A DNA stretch of 24,000 bases, taken from positions 2,776,881-2,800,880 of the forward strand of contig NZ_FXAM01000001.1 in the NCBI RefSeq assembly GCF_900155475.1, given 5' to 3'. This DNA is from Methylomagnum ishizawai (GTDB lineage Bacteria > Pseudomonadota > Gammaproteobacteria > Methylococcales > Methylococcaceae). This document shows, piece after piece, positions 4,246 to 22,769 of this stretch. Position 1 is the first letter of the stretch. Each line of letters starts with the position of its first letter. A program made the translations under genes and the position numbers. The notes under the pieces were generated by a model. The model saw nothing but the letters and a program-made list of their open reading frames with translations, had not been told where the DNA came from and ran no database searches.

Positions 4246-5283
4246 TCAACCATCCCGTCCCACCCCGACCCGAAACGCCCCATCATCCCGCCGTTCCATC
4301 CGAATCTCCACGTCTAAGAAGCGCCGGATCACCCCGGCATTGGTGATAGCGTGCTGGCTCGGCGTCCCCGTGGTGAACGACCCGGCCCCGGCCAGGGCCA
4401 AGGGCAGCAACAATTGATCGGCCAGATACGGACCCACCGCCGCTCCCGCCGCGAGATAACGCCGCGCCTGCTCGACGGTCCGCTCGGCCACGGTTTCCGC
4501 CGCCACGCCCTTTTCCGCGAAGCCGGAAAACACCTCGGTCACTTGTTCATGTTCCAAGGTCAGCAACAAGGCGTTGCCCGGCCCCTGGTCGTTGGCGAGA
4601 CCGCGCAGGTGGAGTTGTTCGGCGTTCCAACCCAGGCGCTTGCCGACCACGTCCAGTTCCCGGCGGGCAATGTGGACCGGCAGGGCGGCGATGAAGCTTT
4701 CCGCGTAGGCTTGGACGCGGGGGCCGCGTTCCTCCAGGACCAAGGGCCGCAGCCGGGGCGCGGGCTCGATGTGGGCGCTGAAACCGCCGCCGCCCGCCGG
4801 ATAGAAACCGAAGCGCTGGAGTTCCAGGGACACCTCCGCGCCCATGCGCCGCAGCAGCGGCAGGAAGGCCCGCTCCAGGAAATGGAACGGCGGCGACATG
4901 GGGTTGTGGGTGCCGCCCTGGAGTTCGACCCGGCTCGGCGCATCGGCCCGCAGCAAAGCCGGGAGGACGGTCTGGAACACCAGGGTACAGCTTCCCGCCG
5001 TGCCGATGGCGAAGCGGTAGTCGCCGCCCCGGACCAGCCCCGGCGCGAAGCCCAAGGTTTGCGAACCGGCCCGGTCGCCTTCGACCGTGGCCCCGCAAAT
5101 CTCCGCCGCCGCCCGCACGGCGGTCAGGTGTTGGCGCATCAGCCCTGGGGTTTTGCGCTTGGCGCGGATATTGACAATGCGGAACGGCGTCCCGGTACAC
5201 AGAGACAGCGACAGCGCCGTCCGCAATACCTGTCCACCACCCTCGCCTTCCGAACCGTCCAGTTCCAAGTATTCATTCACCAT
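4246..5283 (-). CDS. rtcA: RNA 3'-terminal phosphate cyclase
   Basis: 345-aa ORF. The N-terminus LELDGSEGEGGGQVLRTALSLS...GLMRQHLTAVRAAAEICGATVEG and later RGGDYRFAIGTAGSCTLVFQTVLPAL and GPYLADQLLLPLALAG align closely with E. coli RtcA as I recall it. A GGGGG Shine-Dalgarno lies 6 nt upstream of the ATG. Confidence 0.95.
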   Translation of the reverse strand: MVNEYLELDGSEGEGGGQVLRTALSLSLCTGTPFRIVNIRAKRKTPGLMRQHLTAVRAAAEICGATVEGDRAGSQTLGFAPGLVRGGDYRFAIGTAGSCTLVFQTVLPALLRADAPSRVELQGGTHNPMSPPFHFLERAFLPLLRRMGAEVSLELQRFGFYPAGGGGFSAHIEPAPRLRPLVLEERGPRVQAYAESFIAALPVHIARRELDVVGKRLGWNAEQLHLRGLANDQGPGNALLLTLEHEQVTEVFSGFAEKGVAAETVAERTVEQARRYLAAGAAVGPYLADQLLLPLALAGAGSFTTGTPSQHAITNAGVIRRFLDVEIRMERRDDGAFRVGVGRDG

Positions 5284-5318
5284 TTCATGCCCCCGGAATA
5301 TACTTCACATCATAATCC

Positions 5319-5348
5319 TTGACCATCGGGATTATGCCGCATTAAAGT
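5319..5348 (+). promoter_or_regulatory. Candidate sigma70 promoter for the DUF1152-like gene
   Basis: TTGACC (5319-5324), an 18-nt spacer, then TAAAGT (5343-5348), about 36 nt upstream of the ATG at 5384. It sits in the A/T-rich divergent intergenic region shared with rtcA. Motif match only. Confidence 0.25.
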
Positions 5349-5383
5349 CCACATCGAACAAAACGCTGCTTATAGGTTTTAAA

Positions 5384-6325
5384 ATGAAAATTCCCTTTTT
5401 CGACGCCTTATCGGACTCGAAATCCATCCTGATCGCGGGCGCGGGTGGTGGTTTCGACGTGGCAAGTGGAATACCCATCTATTTATATCTACGCAAACTC
5501 GGCAAGCCCGTGGTTCTGGCCAACTTATCCTTCACCGCATTACCGTCCACGGACAGCGATGAAATCTGTCCAGGCACCTATCAGATCACCCAAGAATCGC
5601 GGGATATACCTTACTTTCCAGAGAAATTCATCCTGGAATGGCTAAGCGCCAGGGGCGAGAATCCCGATATCTACGCTTGCTCCAACAAGCTGGGGGTTAT
5701 CCCGCTCGGCCATGCCTATTCGGTGATCGCCCAGAAACACGGTATCGACACACTCATCCTGGTCGATGGCGGCACGGATAGCCTGATGTTCGGCGATGAA
5801 GTAGGGGTCGGCACCATCGTCGAGGATGCCTGTTCCATCATCGCGGCGGCCAAAGTTCCCATCGCCCATCGCTATCTGGTCGCGACCGGGTTTGGTGTCG
5901 ATTATTTCCACGACCTCAATCACCATGCCTGCCTGGAAAATATCGCCACCCTTACCAGGGACGGCGCATACCTGGGTGCCATCGCCTTGACTCAGGATAT
6001 GGACGAGGGACGGGGTTATTTGGAGTTGGTGGAATACCTGAACCGGCGGCTGCCGGGATATATGAGTATCGTCGCCAATTCCATAGCCAGCGCCATCCGG
6101 GGTGAATTCGGGAATTTCCATGTCACCCCCAGGACGAAAGGCAGCGAGTTGTTCATCAATCCCTTTATGGGGTTATTTTGGTTTTTCCAACTACGCGGCG
6201 TGGCTGCGCGGATCGCGTTCGCTTCCAAAATCGACACCAGCGAGACCATGCACGAAGTGGCCCAGGGTTTTCGGCTATTCCGCGCCATGACCATCCGGCG
6301 CACACCGAAAAATATCCCCCTCTGA
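5384..6325 (+). CDS. Uncharacterised glycine-loop protein (DUF1152-like by recollection), opposite strand between rtcB and rtcA
   Basis: The tracked ORF starts at 5087, but that upstream part overlaps rtcA. I prefer the ATG at 5384 (MKIPFFDALSDSKSILIAGAGGGFDVASGIP...). A beta-strand followed by a GAGGGFD loop, and a later LILVDGGTDSLMFGDE motif, resemble what I remember of DUF1152 (PF06626) proteins. My hand count over five 60-nt lines gives about 53% GC, against about 60% or more in rtcB and rtcA. Confidence 0.7.
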   Translation: MKIPFFDALSDSKSILIAGAGGGFDVASGIPIYLYLRKLGKPVVLANLSFTALPSTDSDEICPGTYQITQESRDIPYFPEKFILEWLSARGENPDIYACSNKLGVIPLGHAYSVIAQKHGIDTLILVDGGTDSLMFGDEVGVGTIVEDACSIIAAAKVPIAHRYLVATGFGVDYFHDLNHHACLENIATLTRDGAYLGAIALTQDMDEGRGYLELVEYLNRRLPGYMSIVANSIASAIRGEFGNFHVTPRTKGSELFINPFMGLFWFFQLRGVAARIAFASKIDTSETMHEVAQGFRLFRAMTIRRTPKNIPL

Positions 6326-6335
6326 CGCGGCCCGC

Positions 6336-7556
6336 CTAACCCTTGACGCACACCACCTGCTTGAGGGTATGCACGATCTCCACCAAATCCGCCTGCGCCC
6401 GCATCACCGCGTCGATGTCCTTATAGGCCAGGGGAATCTCGTCGATCACATTCTTGTCCTTGCGGCATTCCACGCCTTCGGTGGCCTGGATTTGGTCGGC
6501 CACGCTGTAGCGGCGCTTGGCCTCGGAGCGCGACATCAAACGCCCCGCGCCGTGGCTGCACGAGCAGAACGACTGCGGCTCGCCCTTGCCGCGCACGATG
6601 TAGGACCGCGCCCCCATCGAACCGGGGATGATGCCGAGTTCGCCTTCCCGCGCCGACACCGCGCCCTTGCGGGTGACGAGGATGTTCTTGCCGAAATGGT
6701 GTTCGCGCTGCACGTAGTTGTGGTGGCAATTCACCGCCTCGACCTCGGCCTCGAACGGCTGGGGCATGATGCGGCGGATGGCCTCGACCACCTGACGCAT
6801 CATCAAGGCCCGGTTGCGGCGGGCGTAATCCTGCGCCCATTCCACCGCTTGCACATAGTCGGTGAAATGTTCGCTTTGCTGCGGGAAATAGGCCAAATCG
6901 GCATCCGGCAGGTTGATGAAATAGCGGCGCATGTCCTCCTTCGCCAGTTCGATGAACAGGTTGCCGATGGCGTTGCCGACGCCCCGCGAGCCCGAGTGCA
7001 GCATGAACCAAACTCGATCCACCTCGTCCAGGCAGACCTCGATGAAGTGATTGCCAGTGCCGAGCGTGCCCAGGTGGTTGCGGTTGTTGGTCTTGGCGAG
7101 CTTGGGGTATTTCGCGGTGATCTCGCGGAATTCCGGCTCCAGTTCGGCCCAGACTTCGTCCACCTCCGGCGGCGGATTCGTCCAGGCGCCCACATCGCGG
7201 CTGCCGGGCGTGCGGCCATGGGGGACGGCTTTTTCGATGGCCGTGCGCCAGCCATGCAGGTGGTCGGGCAGGTCGGCGGCGGTCAGCGAAGTGCGGGCGG
7301 CGATCATCCCGCAGCCGATATCGACCCCGACCGCCGCCGGGATGATGGCCCCGAGGGTCGGGATCACGCTGCCGATGGTGGAGCCCTTGCCGAGATGCAC
7401 GTCCGGCATCACCGCCAGGTGGCTGAAGATGAACGGCAGCCGGGCGATGTTGAAAAGCTGCTGCTTGGCTTCTTCCTCGACCGGGACGCCACGGGTCCAC
7501 ATCTTGATGTGGTGGCCTTGGGTGGGCTGGAGGACTTCGTAGGATTCGTGGTTCAT
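6336..7556 (-). CDS. rtcB: RNA-splicing ligase RtcB (3'-phosphate/5'-hydroxyl RNA ligase)
   Basis: 406-aa ORF. MWTRGVPVEEEAKQQL...PFIFSHLAVMPDVHLGKGSTIGSVIPT, GTLGTGNHFIEVCLDE, NCHHNYV, SFCSCSHGAGR and the C-terminal LKQVVCVKG are near-identical to E. coli RtcB as I recall it. Confidence 0.97.
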   Translation of the reverse strand: MNHESYEVLQPTQGHHIKMWTRGVPVEEEAKQQLFNIARLPFIFSHLAVMPDVHLGKGSTIGSVIPTLGAIIPAAVGVDIGCGMIAARTSLTAADLPDHLHGWRTAIEKAVPHGRTPGSRDVGAWTNPPPEVDEVWAELEPEFREITAKYPKLAKTNNRNHLGTLGTGNHFIEVCLDEVDRVWFMLHSGSRGVGNAIGNLFIELAKEDMRRYFINLPDADLAYFPQQSEHFTDYVQAVEWAQDYARRNRALMMRQVVEAIRRIMPQPFEAEVEAVNCHHNYVQREHHFGKNILVTRKGAVSAREGELGIIPGSMGARSYIVRGKGEPQSFCSCSHGAGRLMSRSEAKRRYSVADQIQATEGVECRKDKNVIDEIPLAYKDIDAVMRAQADLVEIVHTLKQVVCVKG

Positions 7557-7580
7557 GGGCTTTCCCCTGGAATAAAAGGC

Positions 7581-7700
7581 GCGATGACAAGGGATGATGA
7601 AATTCCTATTCGCTACCGGCCATAGGCCGACCGGGACTTGAACCCGGAACCTGCGGATCGCTCCGCCGCTTTACCATGTAATTCCATCGGCATTCATCGC
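7581..7700 (-). ncRNA. Y-RNA-like module 6 (T-arm plus GNRA hairpin, degenerate D region)
   Basis: Minus-strand RNA: GCGAUGA-AUGCC-GAUGGAAUU-ACAUGGUAAAGC-GCGGA GCGA UCCGC-AGGUU-CCGGG UUCAAGU CCCGG-U-CGGCC UAU GGCCG-GUAGCGAAUAGG-AAUUUCAUC-AUCCCUUG-UCAUCGC. It ends 24 nt upstream of the rtcB ATG. Confidence 0.7.
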
Positions 7701-7711
7701 TAAAAAAGCTT

Positions 7712-7838
7712 GGGCGACAAGGGGTTGGTGAAACTTGCCCGGTGTTCTACCACTGAACTACGGTCCTATGGGTAGCGGGACCGACGGGGATCGAACCCGC
7801 GACTTCCGGGGTAGATGTAGTTCCACCCGCATTCGCCC
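7712..7838 (-). ncRNA. Y-RNA-like module 5 (permuted tRNA-like, YrlA-type topology)
   Basis: Minus-strand RNA: GGGCGA-AUGCG-GGUGGAAC-UACAUCUA-CCCGG-AAGUC-GCGGG UUCGAUC CCCGU-CGGUCC CGCUACCCAUA GGACCG-UA-GUUC AGUGGUA GAAC-A-CCGGG-CAA-GUUUCACC-AACCCCUUG-UCGCCC. CCGGG pairs with CCCGG as an anticodon-like stem that continues into the connector helix and the terminal stem. Confidence 0.8.
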
Positions 7839-7856
7839 AAAATTATCGAAAAAAGC

Positions 7857-7965
7857 GGCGCGACAAGGATCGGCAAGACTTCTGCTCTACCGACTGAGCT
7901 ACCGCGCCGAAGCACGGGCCGGGATCGAACCGGCGACATGAGGTAGTCCTGCCCGCATTCGCACC
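7857..7965 (-). ncRNA. Y-RNA-like module 4 (permuted tRNA-like)
   Basis: Minus-strand RNA: GGUGCGA-AUGCG-GGCAGGACU-ACCUCAUGUC-GCCGG UUCGAUC CCGGC-CCGUGC UUCG GCGCGG-UA-GCUC AGUCGGUA GAGC-AGA-AGUCUUGCC-GAUCCUUG-UCGCGCC. It has a canonical D-arm and T-arm. The acceptor stem is closed by a UUCG tetraloop, and a 9-bp connector takes the anticodon-stem position. Confidence 0.8.
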
Positions 7966-7985
7966 AAACAGCCATCAAAAAAGAT

Positions 7986-8106
7986 GGGCGACAAGGTGTG
8001 GTGAAACAAGGCGCTCTGGCCTCTGAGCTACGGTCCCGAAGGACCGGCGGGAATCGAACCCGCGACCTCCCGCGTGACAGGCGTGTAGTTCCACCGGCAT
8101 TCGCCC
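7986..8106 (-). ncRNA. Y-RNA-like module 3 (permuted tRNA-like, tRNA-Asp-related)
   Basis: Minus-strand RNA: GGGCGA-AUGCC-GGUGGAAC-UA-CACGC CUGUCAC GCGGG-AGGUC-GCGGG UUCGAUU CCCGC-CGGUCC UUCG GGACCG-UA-GCUC AGAGGCCA GAGC-G-CCUU-GUUUCACC-ACACCUUG-UCGCCC. The T-arm, a UUCG-capped acceptor stem and the D-arm are all present, in permuted order. Confidence 0.8.
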
Positions 8107-8125
8107 AAAATCGTCATAAAAAGCT

Positions 8126-8230
8126 GTGCGACAAAACGGGGTTGGACTCGAACCTGGGTCGCCCCAGGCTCCGGGACTTGAACCCGAGCGGTTGCCCGCC
8201 TACCTGATGTAGTCCAACCGGCATTCGCAC
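8126..8230 (-). ncRNA. Y-RNA-like module 2 (T-arm plus GNRA-capped hairpins)
   Basis: Minus-strand RNA: GUGCGA-AUGCC-GGUUGGACU-ACAUCAGGUAG-GCGG GCAA CCGC-U-CGGG UUCAAGU CCCG-GAG-CCUGGG GCGA CCCAGG-UUCG-AGUCCAACC-CCGUUUUG-UCGCAC. It has the terminal stem and a 9-bp connector. It also has a T-arm with a canonical 7-nt UUCAAGU loop and two GNRA-capped hairpins. There is no clear D-arm. Confidence 0.7.
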
Positions 8231-8242
8231 ATCAACCTAAGT

Positions 8243-8324
8243 GCGGAGGCCCGCGACAAGAATTCGGTGTGATCGCGCTATCGGAACAATCGATGTAATC
8301 ACACCGGCATTCGCGGGCCTCCGC
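8243..8324 (-). ncRNA. Y-RNA-like module 1 (simple stem-loop, YrlB-like, no tRNA-like element)
   Basis: Minus-strand RNA: GCGGAGGCCCGCGA-AUGCC-GGUGUGAU-UACAUCGAUUGUUCCGAUAGCGCG-AUCACACC-GAAUUCUUG-UCGCGGGCCUCCGC. It has a 14-bp terminal stem and an 8-bp second helix. It starts 7 nt after the rsr stop codon. Confidence 0.75.
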
Positions 8325-8331
8325 CCAACAC

Positions 8332-9894
8332 TTACAAAACCATCTCTTCGATCACGCCGGCCCAATGCGCCGCCGTCAATTGCCCGGCCGCGAACGCCGC
8401 CAGCACCTTGAACACCTCGTCGGAGAACCCGCCGATGTTCAAAATATCCCCGCGTTCCGCCGCCTGGGTCGTGCCGTAGGGCTGGATGTCGATGCAGACC
8501 AAGCGGGCCTCCGGGTTGCGCTGGCGGAAGATTTCCCATTCCTTCAAGGTGGCCGTGGCCCCATGCCGGACAGCGTCCACCCAGGATTGATTATCCGAGA
8601 CGAACACCACCAGATCGGCCCGGGCCTTTTCGCGGTTCAGCAAGGCCAAAGGAGCGCTGCAATTGGTTCCGCCGCCCCCGACCGCCGCCAGCCTTTCGGC
8701 ATTGGCCAGCACCGTGGCGCGGGCATCCAAAGCCACCGACACCACATCGGTCTCGAAGGGCAAGACCCGCGTCTCGGGGTTCTTGCGCAGCAACGCCGCC
8801 GCCACCAAGGCCGCCACATCGACACAGCGCACCGACGTGGTCGCCGATCCGCGTTGGCCCGTGACCGGGGAACGCATCGAACCGGACACGTCCGGGCAGA
8901 CCACCACCCGGCCCGCCAATTCCGGCACGTTGGCGAGCGCGGTTTCCATAGCCTGCTGCAAAGCTTCCCGGACCTGGGCGGGCACGCCTTGCCCGACCGA
9001 GCGGTAGGCCGCCAGCAATTGGTACGGGAACACCTTGGCGCGGGCGATGGCCGCCGGATCGCGCAGTTTGTCCGCCACCACCTCCGCCATGCCTTCCATG
9101 GCAAACACGCCATGCCGGGCAAAGGTGTTCAGATTCATCCGCACCATCTGCCAACCGCTACAGCGGGCGATCCGCGCCCATTGTTTGGTGTCCAGATTCA
9201 AAGCCGTCAGCATTTGGAACGGCACCTCCGGCGGTTCGCCGCCGGGGTCGCGCTTCCAGGCTTCAAAAGCCTGGGTGATGGGTGGCAAGGCCGCCGCATC
9301 GTAGGGCTTGCCGATCAACCAGGCGAAAAAGGCTTCGCGCCAGGGCTCGGCGGGCTTGGGATGCACCATCTTCACCACATCGACCAGGGAGGGCGCGTTG
9401 CCCACGGCGGCGTTCAGCAAATCCTTCTCGGAAGCTTGGTTCAGCCAGTGCTGCACCAGCTTCTTGGGCCGGGTGCCCAGGGACTTCCGGCCCACCGCGC
9501 CGCTCCGCAAAATCTGCACGAAGTTCCGCAGCATCCGGCCATTGCCGACCACCCGGTCGAACACCTGGGGCAGGAATTCCGGTCCCCGCAGGGTCAACAC
9601 CGCCGCCAACAAGGCCGGGATATCTTTCATATAACCCCGCTCGCGGCAGTAAACGGCGGTCTTGGCGATGAAGCGCGGCTCCACCTCGCGGCACAGGTCG
9701 AGGATCGTCGCCAATTGCGCTTCGGCCCCGGCGTAGAACGTGCCGTTCAGGCAGCCGGTCGCGGCGTATTGGGCCAGCCGGTGCTTGGGGCTGAAAGCAT
9801 AGGCGGGAGCGCCTTCGTGGTTACGGCCATCGGCCACCGGCAGGGCACGGCCCCGCGTGCTTTGGAACAATTGTGGATTCGCCATGGCGTTCAT
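8332..9894 (-). CDS. rsr: Ro60-related (TROVE plus vWA domain) RNA-binding protein Rsr
   Basis: 520-aa ORF. The N-terminus (NHEGAPAYAFSPKHRLAQYAATGCLNGTFYAGAEAQL) matches the TROVE/Ro60 pattern I recall. The C-terminal part (VVCPDVSGSMRSPV...GGGTNCSAPL...VVFVSDNQSW) looks like a vWA/MIDAS domain. Its position upstream of Y-like RNAs and rtcB, and divergent from rtcR, fits the known rsr locus layout. The second in-frame ATG at 9885 is an alternative start. Confidence 0.93.
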   Translation of the reverse strand: MNAMANPQLFQSTRGRALPVADGRNHEGAPAYAFSPKHRLAQYAATGCLNGTFYAGAEAQLATILDLCREVEPRFIAKTAVYCRERGYMKDIPALLAAVLTLRGPEFLPQVFDRVVGNGRMLRNFVQILRSGAVGRKSLGTRPKKLVQHWLNQASEKDLLNAAVGNAPSLVDVVKMVHPKPAEPWREAFFAWLIGKPYDAAALPPITQAFEAWKRDPGGEPPEVPFQMLTALNLDTKQWARIARCSGWQMVRMNLNTFARHGVFAMEGMAEVVADKLRDPAAIARAKVFPYQLLAAYRSVGQGVPAQVREALQQAMETALANVPELAGRVVVCPDVSGSMRSPVTGQRGSATTSVRCVDVAALVAAALLRKNPETRVLPFETDVVSVALDARATVLANAERLAAVGGGGTNCSAPLALLNREKARADLVVFVSDNQSWVDAVRHGATATLKEWEIFRQRNPEARLVCIDIQPYGTTQAAERGDILNIGGFSDEVFKVLAAFAAGQLTAAHWAGVIEEMVL

Positions 9895-9925: not shown

Positions 9926-9941
9926 TGCAGCCGCCGTGCCA
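9926..9941 (-). promoter_or_regulatory. Sigma54 (-24/-12) promoter for rsr, the Y-RNA array and rtcB
   Basis: The minus strand reads TGGCACGGCGGCTGCA. It has the GG and GC elements at the canonical spacing of the TGGCACG-N4-TTGCW consensus. The -12 element lies about 30 nt upstream of the rsr ATG, and the sigma54 activator gene rtcR is divergent from it. Confidence 0.7.
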
Positions 9942-10075: not shown

Positions 10076-11668
<1,593 letters not shown>

Positions 11669-22405: not shown

Positions 22406-22481
<76 letters not shown>

Positions 22482-22695: not shown

Positions 22696-22769
22696 GGCTG
22701 AGTGGCAGAATGGTCATGCAGCGGCCTGCAAAGCCGTGTACGCCGGTTCGATTCCGACCTCAGCCTCCA
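22696..22769 (+). tRNA. tRNA-Cys (anticodon GCA)
   Basis: 74 nt. Acceptor GGCTGAG/CTCAGCC; anticodon arm CGGCC-TGCAAAG-GCCG, which gives anticodon GCA; T-loop TTCGATT; encoded CCA. As I fold it, the T-stem GCCGG/CCGAC contains one C-A mismatch. Confidence 0.85.

What the first reader, a model, noticed from the sequence alone, without database searches (positions are those of the whole stretch)
7581..8230. Two structural classes of tRNA mimics; module 3 keeps a tRNA-Asp-like anticodon arm
Modules 3, 4 and 5 are circularly permuted tRNAs. Their order is variable region, T-arm, acceptor 3' strand, cap, acceptor 5' strand, UA, D-arm, and the stem toward the Ro helix takes the anticodon-stem position. 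The acceptor is capped by UUCG in modules 3 and 4 and by an 11-nt loop in module 5. Modules 2 and 6 differ. They have a UUCAAGU T-loop, a GNRA-capped hairpin (GCAA or GCGA) in the variable-arm position, a short capped acceptor-like hairpin and no clear D-arm. Module 3 contains GCCUGUCACGCGGGAGGUCGCGGGUUCGAUUCCCGCCGGUCC. This nearly matches the anticodon-arm-to-acceptor part of E. coli tRNA-Asp as I recall it, GCCUGUCACGCAGGGGGUCGCGGGUUCGAGUCCCGUCCGUUCC. The match includes the 7-nt loop CUGUCAC with the GUC anticodon. Modules 3 and 5 share an identical connector (GGUGGAAC/GUUUCACC). The array therefore appears to have grown by duplication and by capture or remodelling of real tRNA sequence. The units may present different tRNA identities.
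Basis: partly seen in the sequence, partly recalled or inferred. Interest (0 to 1): 0.65.

Follow-up and report, generated by a model that had tools for sequence, protein, structure and literature searches.

The report
Y RNA array of tRNA mimics
This is a tandem set of six small non-coding Y RNAs, partners of the bacterial Ro protein, inside an RNA-repair operon; they are a known kind of tRNA look-alike, but module 3 belongs to a widespread subclass with a complete anticodon-arm look-alike whose three-letter 'anticodon' differs in every relative, so its match to tRNA-Asp is a chance draw and not a captured tRNA.

Summary
The sequence features are real. On the minus strand, rsr (Ro60 homologue) is followed by six Y-RNA modules (M1-M6, 8319-7578), then rtcB. 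Divergent rtcR lies upstream and rtcA further downstream. M3 and M4 pass the Rfam YrlA threshold. M5 falls just short, and M2 and M6 are weak hits. M3-M5 as 'circularly permuted tRNAs' is the published description of YrlA.

M3's 42-nt segment does match E. coli tRNA-Asp (88%). But 46 of 54 unselected YrlA modules with a 19-23-nt 'variable region', from many taxa, share the same design: a 5-bp anticodon stem broken between nt 28 and 29, and a 7-nt loop with C32, U33 and A37. The triplet is hypervariable. M3's orthologues carry GCU, AUC, CAU, ACG, UCU, ACU and ACC. Orthologues with other triplets are just as tRNA-Asp-like (70-78%). So the arm is inherited, not captured from tRNA-Asp, and it carries no conserved identity.

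M2 and M6 are separate conserved classes. M6 is better read as a tRNA mimic opened in its D loop, with its hairpin in the anticodon-arm position.

The papers I could read treat this hairpin as a class II-type variable loop. In an operon induced by anticodon-loop-cleaved tRNAs, an anticodon-arm mimic suggests testable decoy or sensor roles.

The parts
10076..11668 (+). rtcR, a sigma-54 enhancer-binding activator with an RtcR/CARF-type N-terminal domain. It is divergent from the operon.
   Evidence: Pfam RtcR 4.3e-80 and Sigma54_activat 9.3e-48
9927..9941 (-). Sigma-54 promoter-like site TGGCACGGCGGCTGC, 33 nt upstream of the rsr start codon
   Evidence: One mismatch to TGGCAC-N5-TTGC. This is a pattern match only; the window as a whole has no more matches than chance.
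8332..9894 (-). rsr, the bacterial Ro60 homologue (TROVE + vWA)
   Evidence: Pfam vWA_Ro60 3.5e-18 and TROVE 1e-06. Thousands of homologues, many named '60 kDa SS-A/Ro ribonucleoprotein' by their source.
8248..8319 (-). M1: a simple Y RNA (Ro-binding helix plus hairpin, no tRNA-like domain), YrlB-like. It lies outside the finding's coordinates.
   Evidence: Rfam YrlB 22 bits, below threshold. Fold z = -4.6. It has the GCGAAUGC...CUUGUCGC motif pair.
8122..8231 (-). M2: D-arm-less class. Connector 8219-8211/8148-8140; GGUAG remnant; hairpin GCGG-GCAA-CCGC 8199-8188; T arm 8186-8172 (loop UUCAAGU); 9-bp GCGA-capped acceptor-like hairpin 8171-8150.
   Evidence: YrlA 36 bits. MFE equals this structure, z = -5.1. 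In 10 orthologues that are the first tRNA-like module after rsr, 7 of 9 acceptor-like pairs covary.
7982..8107 (-). M3: YrlA with a complete anticodon-arm mimic
   Evidence: YrlA 75 bits. The Rfam model treats acgccugucacgcg as an insertion. The architecture is shared by 47 unique modules.
8071..8083 (-). M3 local hairpin CGC-CUGUCAC-GCG, equivalent to tRNA nt 29-41. Loop 8080-8074; GUC triplet 8078-8076.
   Evidence: Sequence. Pairs 29-41, 30-40 and 31-39 covary across 43 modules. Loop consensus is C32 U33 NNN A37 A/C38.
8069..8070 (-). M3 G42 G43, pairing with C27 C28 (8011-8010) to complete a 5-bp anticodon stem
   Evidence: Covariation across taxa: CC/GG 26, CG/CG 13, GG/CC 7. 27-43 is CG 37 / GC 6; 28-42 is CG 25 / GC 18.
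8010..8012 (-). M3 G26 C27 C28, directly after the D stem. The chain then leaves through UU to the connector strand 8007-8000.
8013..8068 (-). M3 tRNA core: variable loop AGGUC 8068-8064; T arm 8063-8047; acceptor 3' strand 8046-8041; UUCG cap 8040-8037; acceptor 5' strand 8036-8031; U8A9 8030-8029; D arm 8028-8013 (loop AGAGGCCA).
   Evidence: Rfam alignment. Cloverleaf pair counts are 97.9% paired against 79.0% in shuffles.
7854..7965 (-). M4: canonical short-V YrlA (V = CUCAUGUC). The connector takes the anticodon-stem position.
   Evidence: YrlA 74.1 bits. MFE equals the canonical fold.
7708..7839 (-). M5: YrlA with a 5-bp anticodon-stem analogue (CCCGG/CCGGG) that continues into the connector, and an 11-nt acceptor cap
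   Evidence: YrlA 67.1 bits, just under the 69-bit cut-off. R1 model 118.6 bits.
7578..7700 (-). M6: D-loop-opened class. Ro helix with GAUGAAUGC/UUGUCAUC; connector 7688-7681/7603-7596; GGUA + AAGC (D 3' half) 7675-7668; G26 7667; GCGA-capped hairpin in the anticodon-arm position 7666-7653; variable loop AGGUU 7652-7648; T arm 7647-7631; capped acceptor 7629-7617; UA + GCGA (D 5' half) 7615-7610.
   Evidence: YrlA 36.8 bits. The Rfam tRNA model scores 27.5 bits in non-permuted order. The class recurs as the last module before rtcB in about 25 loci. Pair counts are 93.2% against 84.4%.
6336..7556 (-). rtcB RNA ligase, immediately downstream of M6
   Evidence: Pfam RtcB 2.6e-131
4246..5283 (-). 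rtcA RNA 3'-phosphate cyclase
   Evidence: Pfam RTC 3.4e-80 and RTC_insert 2.9e-15

Best explanation
Shown:
- The region is an array of six Y-RNA genes in an rtcR<>rsr-(Y RNAs)-rtcB...rtcA RNA-repair locus. Its closest named relatives are Methylococcaceae MAGs.
- Each module has the conserved Ro-binding helix (GNCGAAUGC ... CUUGUCGC) and a connector. Five of the six also have a tRNA-shaped effector domain.
- At least three conserved topologies occur.
  (i) M4 and M5 are classical YrlA. This is a tRNA permuted at the anticodon end, with a closed acceptor.
  (ii) M3 is a YrlA subclass with a full anticodon stem-loop mimic. It has a 5-bp stem with the chain break between nt 28 and 29, and a 7-nt loop with C32 U33 ... 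A37.
  (iii) M6 is a tRNA mimic opened in the D loop, with a tetraloop-capped hairpin in the anticodon-arm position. M2 is a reduced version without D-stem strands.
- The anticodon-like triplet of class (ii) is the fastest-evolving part of the molecule. M3's GUC, and so its tRNA-Asp look, is one value of a free variable. It is not a captured tRNA or a maintained identity.

Inferred from published work on Salmonella and Deinococcus:
- The RNAs are made from the sigma-54/RtcR-controlled operon transcript and bind Rsr through the basal helix.
- They present the tRNA-shaped domains to tRNA-recognising partners.
- For the anticodon-arm class, the conserved loop shape with a free triplet suggests a partner that reads loop shape, not sequence.
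- The most likely role is a mimic (competitor or decoy) of intact tRNA towards anticodon-loop nucleases or the RtcB/RtcR tRNA-damage pathway.
For: Gene context.

Rfam YrlA hits to all five tRNA-like modules.

Arrays of 2-7 modules lie downstream of rsr in most of about 100 related loci.

Anticodon-arm architecture:
- V-region length peaks sharply at 21 nt (42 of 97 unique modules).
- In the unselected V = 19-23 nt set, 46 of 54 have at least 4 of 5 stem pairs in a fixed register. Shuffled V gives 3.7 +/- 1.8 (maximum 9), and slid registers give 0-17.
- All five stem pairs covary.
- Loop: C32 37/47, U33 45/47, A37 42/47. There are 25 different triplets, and A34 occurs in 21/47.
- Entropy at nt 34-36 is 1.66-1.76 bits, against 0.27 at U33.

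Orthologues of M3 carry GCU, AUC, CAU, ACG, UCU, ACU and ACC. M3 and L104:4104 are 121/131 identical, and 3 of the 10 differences are at loop nt 35, 36 and 38.

tRNA-Asp likeness is generic.

M6 and M2 classes.

Published framework:
- YrlA is a tRNA mimic that binds Rsr (PMC4201824; 10.1101/312249).
- RtcR is activated by tRNA cleaved in the anticodon loop (PMC7790460; PMC10159003).
- The competitive-inhibitor idea for YrlA is in PMC7790460.
Against: - No expression, Rsr-binding or structure-probing data exist for this organism.
- Nearest-neighbour energies do not favour the proposed M3 fold (-47.6 kcal/mol against an MFE of -55.1). The isolated 3-bp hairpin is marginal.
- The ARAGORN tRNA calls on re-joined sequences do not test the hairpin. 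Shuffling nt 29-41 still gives 816/921 calls.
- The split D stem of the M6 class never covaries. In the window's own M6 only 2 of its 4 pairs are standard.
- The genome's own tRNA-Asp could not be obtained, so very old descent of the family from a tRNA-Asp-like gene is not excluded.
- The functional part (decoy or competitor) is inference only.
Confidence: 0.8

Rival explanations
1. M3 acquired its anticodon arm (or its whole 3' half) from the host's tRNA-Asp gene by recombination or gene conversion, and so presents tRNA-Asp identity. It could then be recognised by AspRS, or by Tgt through U33-G34-U35.
For: - There is an ungapped match of 32/36 nt to E. coli tRNA-Asp, including the whole loop CUGUCAC with C38. 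tRNA-Asp is the best E. coli hit in all 5426 genomes.
- The positional counterpart in the closest relative by Rsr identity (L064, 92%) lacks this hairpin.
- ARAGORN calls the re-joined M3 tRNA-Asp(gtc).
Against: - L104:4104 is 92% identical to M3. It has the same stem CGC/GCG, the same GG/CC closure and the same D loop, but the triplet is GCU.
- Seven other related modules keep the flanks GCCU...A(C/A)GC with other triplets.
- Orthologues with other triplets are 70-78% identical to tRNA-Asp, against 74% for M3.
- The 5' half of re-joined M3 is only 18/29 identical to tRNA-Asp.
- GUC also occurs in two unrelated taxa among 47 modules that carry 25 different triplets.
- The acceptor is closed by UUCG, so no aminoacylation is possible without processing.
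Confidence: 0.06
2. The 13-nt hairpin of M3-type modules is a class II-type variable arm that projects from the tRNA core. This is how the papers I could read interpret long YrlA 'VL' regions. On this view it is not an anticodon arm, and the connector helix is the anticodon stem.
For: - Wang et al. (10.1101/312249, section 7) state that many YrlAs have long VLs characteristic of class II tRNAs, with possible short duplexes.
- In the Salmonella crystal structure the stem leading to the Ro helix occupies the anticodon-stem position.
- Thermodynamic folding does not decide between the two readings.
Against: - The hairpin lies 5' of the two nucleotides (42-43) that covary with the two nucleotides after N26 (27-28). 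A class II variable arm lies 3' of nt 43-44.
- There is no linker between hairpin and G42, but there are 2-5-nt linkers to the connector on both strands. This favours stacking of the hairpin on the 27-28/42-43 pairs.
- The stem totals exactly 5 bp and the loop exactly 7 nt, with C32, U33, A37 and A38. That is an anticodon-loop signature.
- A normal 5-nt variable loop (WGGUC, with the Levitt partner C48/U48 covarying with G15/A15: GC 32, AU 7) follows separately.
Confidence: 0.1
3. An alternative function. The anticodon-arm class is a substrate (sentinel), not an inert mimic. Anticodon nucleases cut its loop. This produces an Rsr-tethered, 2',3'-cyclic-phosphate 'nicked permuted tRNA' that activates RtcR or is resealed by RtcB. 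Triplet diversity would then track the specificities of the nucleases met by each lineage.
For: - The operon activator RtcR binds nicked tRNAs and tRNA halves cut in the anticodon loop, and RtcB ligates them (PMC7790460; PMC10159003).
- A synthetic, circularly permuted, acceptor-closed nicked tRNA is a good RtcR ligand (PMC10159003). A cleaved M3-type module would have that topology.
- The triplet is the fastest-evolving site.
- A37-A38 is conserved in most modules. The Salmonella nuclease cuts between adenines in the loop (PMC7790460).
Against: - Salmonella YrlA is not cut by that nuclease, though it has no anticodon loop (PMC7790460).
- A34 in 21/47 modules and triplets absent from real bacterial tRNAs fit neutral drift as well as an arms race.
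- The window's M3 has A37-C38, not AA.
- There is no direct data.
Confidence: 0.15
4. The modules are genuine permuted tRNA genes, as in Cyanidioschyzon, that are processed into functional tRNAs.
For: Re-joined sequences have full cloverleaf geometry. M. smegmatis YrlA is cut by RNase P and receives CCA (PMC4201824).
Against: - The acceptor is only 6 bp with a 4-nt cap in M3.
- The break is inside the anticodon stem and leads into the conserved Ro-binding helix.
- Triplets are not conserved and often carry A34.
- No bacterial circularising or splicing pathway is known (10.1101/312249).
Confidence: 0.02

Closest known systems
YrlA (Rfam RF02553; S. Typhimurium YrlA, PDB 6CU1; Chen et al. 2014, PMC4201824)
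   Same: - Encoded directly downstream of rsr on the same strand, in an rtcR-controlled rsr-Y RNA-rtcB locus.
- GNCGAAUG Ro-binding motif and YUAC motif.
- Near-invariant T arm and D arm.
- Closed acceptor between T and D.
- M3 and M4 score above the Rfam threshold.
   Different: - Six modules in tandem, against two in Salmonella.
- M3-type modules carry a complete anticodon stem-loop mimic that branches from the chain between nt 28 and 29. Salmonella YrlA 'lacks the anticodon loop', and the Rfam model treats the hairpin as an insertion.
- M2 and M6 fall far below the Rfam threshold.
D. radiodurans Yrn1 (as described in PMC4201824)
   Same: M6-type modules have the Yrn1-like order: D-loop features, then a 5-bp hairpin in the anticodon-arm position, then the T arm. 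The Ro helix is formed by the 5' and 3' ends.
   Different: M6-type also has a 5-nt variable loop, a capped acceptor and the 5' half of a D arm (UAGCUCAG) after it, so the whole cloverleaf is present but opened in the D loop. Sequence relatedness to Yrn1 was not tested.
Class II tRNA variable arm (the published reading of long YrlA variable loops; 10.1101/312249)
   Same: A short extra hairpin upstream of the T arm.
   Different: - Position relative to the covarying 27-28/42-43 pairs.
- 7-nt loop with a U33/A37 signature.
- A separate 5-nt variable loop follows.
Circularly permuted tRNA genes of red algae/archaea, and the synthetic permuted nicked tRNA of Chen et al. 2023 (PMC10159003)
   Same: The order is 3' half, closed acceptor, 5' half. 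If cut in its loop, an M3-type module would resemble the synthetic RtcR ligand.
   Different: The ends are not processed into a tRNA. They form the Ro-binding helix, and the break lies in the anticodon stem 5' strand (M3) or the D loop (M6), not in the anticodon loop.
Other tRNA mimics (tmRNA tRNA-like domain, TYMV TLS, mascRNA)
   Same: An L-shape mimic with a T-arm consensus. There are weak Rfam hits to tmRNA and mascRNA models inside M3.
   Different: Those have free 3' ends and are aminoacylated or CCA-processed. They have no Ro-binding helix.

Membership tests
YrlA Y RNA (RF02553) | Encoded within 4 kb of the Ro60 homologue on the same strand | tested here: met
   rsr is at 9894-8332 (-) and the modules at 8319-7578 (-).
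YrlA Y RNA (RF02553) | Score at or above the Rfam gathering threshold (69 bits) | tested here: inconclusive
   M3 75.0 and M4 74.1 pass. M5 67.1 is just below. M6 36.8 and M2 36.0 fail.
YrlA Y RNA (RF02553) | GNCGAAN0-1G motif near the 5' end (putative Rsr contact) | tested here: met
   GCGAAUG is present in M1-M5. M6 and its whole class have GAUGAAUG (U for C), with a compensating UUGUCAUC 3' strand.
YrlA Y RNA (RF02553) | Near-invariant T and D stem-loops, with a closed acceptor stem-loop between them | tested here: met
   Met for M3, M4 and M5. M2 has no D arm. M6 has the D arm split into GGUAAAGC (5' side) and UAGCGA (3' side).
YrlA Y RNA (RF02553) | Binds Rsr, and carries tRNA modifications (psi55 by TruB, D by DusA) | not testable with these tools
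   Needs immunoprecipitation and modification mapping.
Genuine tRNA-Asp (or a recent copy of one) | Contiguous cloverleaf with free acceptor ends, detectable as a tRNA gene | tested here: not met
   ARAGORN finds only tRNA-Gly and tRNA-Cys in the window. The M3 acceptor is closed by UUCG and the order is permuted.
Genuine tRNA-Asp (or a recent copy of one) | GUC anticodon maintained in orthologues | tested here: not met
   Orthologues carry GCU, AUC, CAU, ACG, UCU, ACU and ACC. There are 25 triplets in 47 modules.
Genuine tRNA-Asp (or a recent copy of one) | M3 specifically closer to tRNA-Asp than its orthologues or paralogues are | tested here: not met
   Identity to E. coli tRNA-Asp is 74% for M3 and 70%, 78% and 73% for modules with GCU, AUC and GAU. 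The L104 segment also best-hits tRNA-Asp. The host's own tRNA-Asp was not available.
Class II-type variable arm | Extra hairpin located between nt 44 and 48, that is 3' of the anticodon-stem 3' strand | tested here: not met
   The hairpin precedes the dinucleotide (42-43) that covaries with nt 27-28. A separate 5-nt WGGUC loop follows.
tRNA anticodon arm (structural mimic) | 5-bp stem following N26, a 7-nt loop with pyrimidine-32, U33 and purine-37, then a 4-5-nt variable loop | tested here: met
   46 of 54 unselected modules have at least 4 of 5 pairs. All five pairs covary. Loop: C/U32 44/47, U33 45/47, A/G37 46/47. The three-dimensional stacking was not tested.
Yrn1-like orientation (D features - anticodon-position hairpin - T arm) | The hairpin between D-loop features and the T arm occupies the anticodon-arm position | tested here: met
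   The M6 class has GG(N)UA-GAGC-N26-hairpin-AGGUC-T arm. The Rfam tRNA model aligns M6 in this order at 27.5 bits. Homology to Yrn1 itself was not tested.

The most novel reading that the evidence does not exclude
About half of YrlA-type Y RNAs, including M3, carry a true anticodon stem-loop mimic that has been read as a class II variable loop. Its hypervariable triplet and conserved U33/A37(A38) make it a bait for anticodon-loop nucleases (toxins, colicin- or PrrC-like enzymes, SOS-induced nucleases). Cleavage would turn the Rsr-bound Y RNA into a 2',3'-cyclic-phosphate 'nicked permuted tRNA'. That RNA would switch on RtcR and be resealed by RtcB. On this reading the Y RNA array is the built-in sensor and decoy arm of the RNA-repair operon. 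The four conserved module classes (D-less, short-V, anticodon-arm, D-loop-opened) would each present a different face of tRNA.
Probability: 0.15. Interest if true: 0.8.

Novelty: new variant of a known kind. Interest (0 to 1): 0.5.

Why it matters
The role of the tRNA-like domain of bacterial Y RNAs is an open question. Its partner is unknown. The published structure comes from a Salmonella YrlA that has no anticodon loop.

This work shows two things:
- A large, taxonomically broad subclass has a complete anticodon-arm mimic. Loop geometry is conserved and the triplet is free.
- A second conserved class is a tRNA opened in the D loop.

Together these change what such RNAs can be expected to bind.

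These RNAs sit in an operon whose activator senses tRNAs cut in the anticodon loop and whose ligase reseals them. That gives concrete experiments: nuclease cleavage, RtcR binding and RtcB ligation of M3-type RNAs.

For annotation, Rfam RF02553 misses the M2 and M6 classes. The 'tRNA-Asp capture' reading should not be propagated.

Tried and rejected
1. Source genome. Looking up the window's Rsr by exact sequence found no record. The organism and its tRNA-Asp could not be retrieved. The closest relative is an unnamed Logan contig (92%).
2. The metagenome scan with Rsr returned only relatives at 73% identity or less. Closer loci had to be fetched one by one.
3. My first regular-expression module finder missed most modules. 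I replaced it with a covariance model (R1).
4. An early idea was that M3's core was overwritten by a tRNA-Asp, or derived from a tRNA-Asp dimer, because L064's counterpart lacks the hairpin and has another D loop. I rejected this once L104:4104 and seven other orthologues showed the same architecture with other triplets.
5. Thermodynamic folding of M3 does not recover the cloverleaf or the hairpin. It is not informative either way.
6. ARAGORN on in-silico re-joined modules called 46/47 as tRNAs. A shuffle control (816/921 still called) shows this is not specific for the hairpin. I use it only as a check of overall geometry.
7. The simple terminator scan found only one site, because its loop limit excludes the long Y RNA stems.
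8. The Sim & Wolin 2018 review (PMC6047535) is not held. I cannot exclude that the anticodon-arm reading has been mentioned there.
9. Only 29 real tRNAs were available locally for comparison. A full tRNA-set comparison was not possible.
Full report
**What is there**

The finding lies on the minus strand. The gene order is:
- rtcR (10076-11668, +), divergent from the rest;
- rsr, the Ro60 homologue (9894-8332, -);
- a 775-nt non-coding stretch;
- rtcB (7556-6336, -);
- rtcA further downstream (5283-4246, -).

A sigma-54-like TGGCAC-N5-CTGC lies 33 nt upstream of rsr. This is the known rsr-Y RNA-rtcBA RNA-repair operon layout (PMC7790460).

Rfam finds YrlA (RF02553) five times in the non-coding stretch:

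| Module | Coordinates | YrlA bits (cut-off 69) |
|---|---|---|
| M3 | 8107-7982 | 75.0 |
| M4 | 7965-7854 | 74.1 |
| M5 | 7839-7708 | 67.1 |
| M6 | 7700-7578 | 36.8 |
| M2 | 8231-8122 | 36.0 |

There is also a weak YrlB-like hit for a simple module, M1 (8319-8248). All sequence details in the finding were verified: the caps, the T loops, the GNRA loops, the 42-nt string at 8082-8041 and the shared connector.

**What is already known**

Chen et al. 2014 (PMC4201824) defined YrlA as a Ro-binding helix plus a tRNA-like domain. The domain has a variable region 'V', a T arm, a closed acceptor 'AS' and a D arm. Wang et al. 2018 (10.1101/312249) solved the Salmonella domain. They called most YrlAs 'circularly permuted tRNAs with closed acceptor stems', stated that YrlA 'lacks the anticodon loop', and read long V regions as class II-type variable loops.

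**Relatives**

The window's Rsr is not on record. Its best relatives are:
- an unnamed Logan contig at 92% (L064);
- metagenomic contigs at 80-84%;
- Methylococcaceae MAGs at 78-80%.

I built a covariance model from seven modules (R1). It found about 240 modules downstream of rsr in roughly 100 loci. Arrays of 2-7 modules are the rule.

**Module 3**

In 97 unique modules with a T arm followed by a D arm, the length of the V region is bimodal. It has a sharp peak at 21 nt (42 modules). These V regions read A-[3 nt]-[7 nt]-[3 nt complementary]-[2 nt]-[WGGUC]. The two nucleotides after N26, on the far side of the D arm, are complementary to the 2-nt element.

M3 fits exactly: G26 C27 C28 | C29 G30 C31 - CUGUCAC - G39 C40 G41 G42 G43 - AGGUC. 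The chain leaves the anticodon stem between nt 28 and 29 towards the connector and Ro helix.

Evidence that this is a real, conserved structure:
- I took all 54 unique modules with V = 19-23 nt, without selecting for pairing. Of these, 46 have at least 4 of the 5 stem pairs. Shuffled V gives 3.7 +/- 1.8 (maximum 9), and slid registers give 0-17.
- I aligned 43 sequences re-joined in silico at the break. All five anticodon-stem pairs show changes on both sides (27-43 CG 37 / GC 6; 28-42 CG 25 / GC 18; 30-40 CG 26 / GC 15; 31-39 AU 16 / GC 16 / CG 9). The whole cloverleaf is 97.9% paired, against 79.0% in shuffles. That set had been selected for pairing, so the percentage is inflated. The pair-type diversity is not.
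- The loop is C32 (37/47), U33 (45/47), A37 (42/47) and A38 (35/47, otherwise mostly C).
- G15/A15 covaries with C48/U48.

A class II variable arm would lie 3' of nt 43. This hairpin lies 5' of nt 42 and abuts it without a linker. It is therefore best read as an anticodon arm with a nick in its 5' strand.

Caveats:
- Nearest-neighbour energies do not favour the fold.
- ARAGORN calls the re-joined M3 tRNA-Asp(gtc) and of 47 re-joined modules tRNAs. It does so almost as often when nt 29-41 are shuffled, so these calls are not specific.

**Is it tRNA-Asp?**

The recalled E. coli sequence is right, and tRNA-Asp is the best E. coli match to M3 (88% over 42 nt). But the triplet 34-36 is the most variable part of the molecule:
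- Entropy there is 1.66-1.76 bits, against 0.27 at U33.
- Within clades, 33-76% of sequence pairs differ at these positions, while most of the rest of the molecule differs in 0-35%.
- There are 25 different triplets in 47 modules.
- A34 occurs in 21 of 47. A34 is rare in real bacterial tRNAs (my own knowledge).

M3's closest orthologue, L104:4104-4233, is 121/131 identical. It has the same CGC/GCG stem and the same unusual D loop AGAGGCCA. Its loop is CUGCUAA, so 3 of the 10 differences are at nt 35, 36 and 38. Other related modules keep GCCU...A(C/A)GC but carry AUC, CAU, ACG, UCU, ACU or ACC. GUC also turns up in a Chitinophaga MAG and in an alphaproteobacterium.

The L104 segment (GCU) also best-hits E. 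coli tRNA-Asp (83.7%). Re-joined modules with GCU, AUC or GAU are 70-78% identical to tRNA-Asp, against 74% for M3. The Asp likeness therefore comes from the family-wide variable loop and T arm, plus one draw of a free triplet. Capture from tRNA-Asp and a maintained Asp identity are not supported. The host's own tRNA-Asp could not be examined.

**Modules 2 and 6**

Both classes are conserved and positionally fixed. M2-type is the first tRNA-like module after rsr. M6-type is the last module before rtcB.

M6-type (about 25 unique modules) reads YUAC-A(U)GG(N)UA-GAGC-N26-[5-6-bp hairpin, usually tetraloop-capped]-AGGUC-[T arm, UUCAANN]-[5-bp capped acceptor]-UA-GCUC-AG-connector. This is a full cloverleaf opened in the D loop, with the Ro helix emerging there.

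- Pair counts on 24 sequences give 93.2% paired against 84.4%.
- The anticodon-position hairpin is 100% paired, with 4 of 5 pairs changed on both sides.
- The split D stem GCUC/GAGC never covaries. Its support is identity to the two halves of the canonical D arm, plus the Rfam tRNA model aligning M6 in non-permuted order (27.5 bits).
- The window's M6 has the weaker variant GCGA/AAGC.

This orientation is like that described for D. radiodurans Yrn1 (PMC4201824).

M2-type (10 orthologues) has GGUA, an invariant GCGG-GNRA-CCGC hairpin, a 4-bp T stem and a GNRA-capped acceptor-like hairpin. In that hairpin 7 of 9 pairs covary. There are no D-stem strands.

The same four classes recur in the same order in Burkholderiales and in the Methylococcaceae-like group: D-less, short-V, anticodon-arm, D-loop-opened. 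This argues for distinct roles, not for random duplicates.

**Mechanism**

Shown: the identity of the RNAs, their architectures and their conservation.

Inferred from the literature: they bind Rsr through the basal helix and present tRNA-shaped domains to unknown tRNA-binding partners. RtcR is activated by tRNAs nicked in the anticodon loop and RtcB reseals them (PMC7790460; PMC10159003). Hughes et al. proposed that YrlA might competitively inhibit the anticodon nuclease.

A mimic with conserved anticodon-loop geometry and a free triplet fits a shape-reading partner. It makes two models directly testable: decoy (inhibitor) and bait (sensor). I consider the decoy or competitor role the most likely (about 0.3-0.4) and the sensor role less likely (about 0.15).

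**Verdict**

This is a known family (Y RNAs, YrlA) in its known operon. Follow-up shows that the published 'variable arm' is, in about half of YrlA modules, an anticodon-arm mimic with a hypervariable triplet. It also shows that a D-loop-opened class exists. Both are new variants of a known kind and of moderate interest.

Noticed in passing
window 8121-8106, 7985-7966, 7853-7840, 7707-7701, 7577-7560 (minus strand): Each of M2-M6 is followed within a few nucleotides by a U tract (U5, U6, U6, U6, U4). With the long basal helix this looks like an intrinsic terminator or a 3'-end signal, yet rtcB lies downstream. This suggests partial termination or processing that sets the Y RNA to mRNA ratio. 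M1 has no U tract.
   Followed up: partly
window 7776-7908 (minus strand): The Rfam tRNA model scores 30.4 bits (above its threshold of 29) across the junction of two modules. It uses the acceptor 5' strand and D arm of M4, and the T arm and acceptor 3' strand of M5. This is the reverse of the 'dimeric tRNA origin' idea and a source of false tRNA calls.
   Followed up: no
L004-L013, L053, L078 (Burkholderiales) and L100, L101, L105, L107: The same four module classes recur in the same order after rsr in distant lineages: D-less about 105 nt, short-V YrlA, anticodon-arm YrlA, D-loop-opened with GAUGAAUGC. The window (M2, M3, M4, M5, M6), L064 and L104 (7 modules each) are expanded or reordered versions.
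   Followed up: partly
L107:4407-4618; L002:5774-5977; L103:4609-4781: One M3-type module has an insertion of about 80 nt (measured against the 131-nt L105 orthologue) inside its T loop. Two short-V modules have 60-90-nt insertions in the acceptor cap. Their nature is unknown.
   Followed up: no
L004:6325, L005:5670, L006:5799, L008:6496, L017:5803, L053:1597, L078:1813: In Burkholderiales the anticodon-arm modules carry an additional GNRA-capped hairpin (for example GUGCGGGCAACCGCAC) between nt 28 and the connector 3' strand. This makes a four-way junction at the break point.
   Followed up: no
L017:382-1297, L052:492-1590, L057:1942-3736: Clusters of 6-8 tRNA genes, some with odd features, lie next to rsr in a Massilia MAG and two Methyloligellaceae MAGs (ARAGORN). 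This fits the published remark that Y RNAs are sometimes adjacent to tRNAs.
   Followed up: no
window 5087-6325 (+): An ORF on the opposite strand between rtcB and rtcA matches DUF1152 (E = 5.7e-16, residues 192-395), so rtcB and rtcA are not contiguous here. Its annotated start would overlap rtcA, so the true start is probably later.
   Followed up: no
L102:1706-2219; L104:1481-1735: Toxin-antitoxin genes (RelB/YafQ-ParE; MazE) sit next to rsr in relatives. In Salmonella, dinJ-yafQ is attached to the same operon (PMC9879122).
   Followed up: no
window 8248-8319 vs L064:7550-7674: In the pairwise alignment, M1 aligns with a full YrlA module of L064 as if the T arm, acceptor and most of the D arm had been deleted. 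The simple YrlB-like module may be a deletion derivative of a YrlA.
   Followed up: no
window 22406-22481 and 22696-22769 (+): Two ordinary tRNA genes, Gly(GCC) and Cys(GCA). They are 61% and 59% identical to re-joined M3 and are unrelated to the array.
   Followed up: yes
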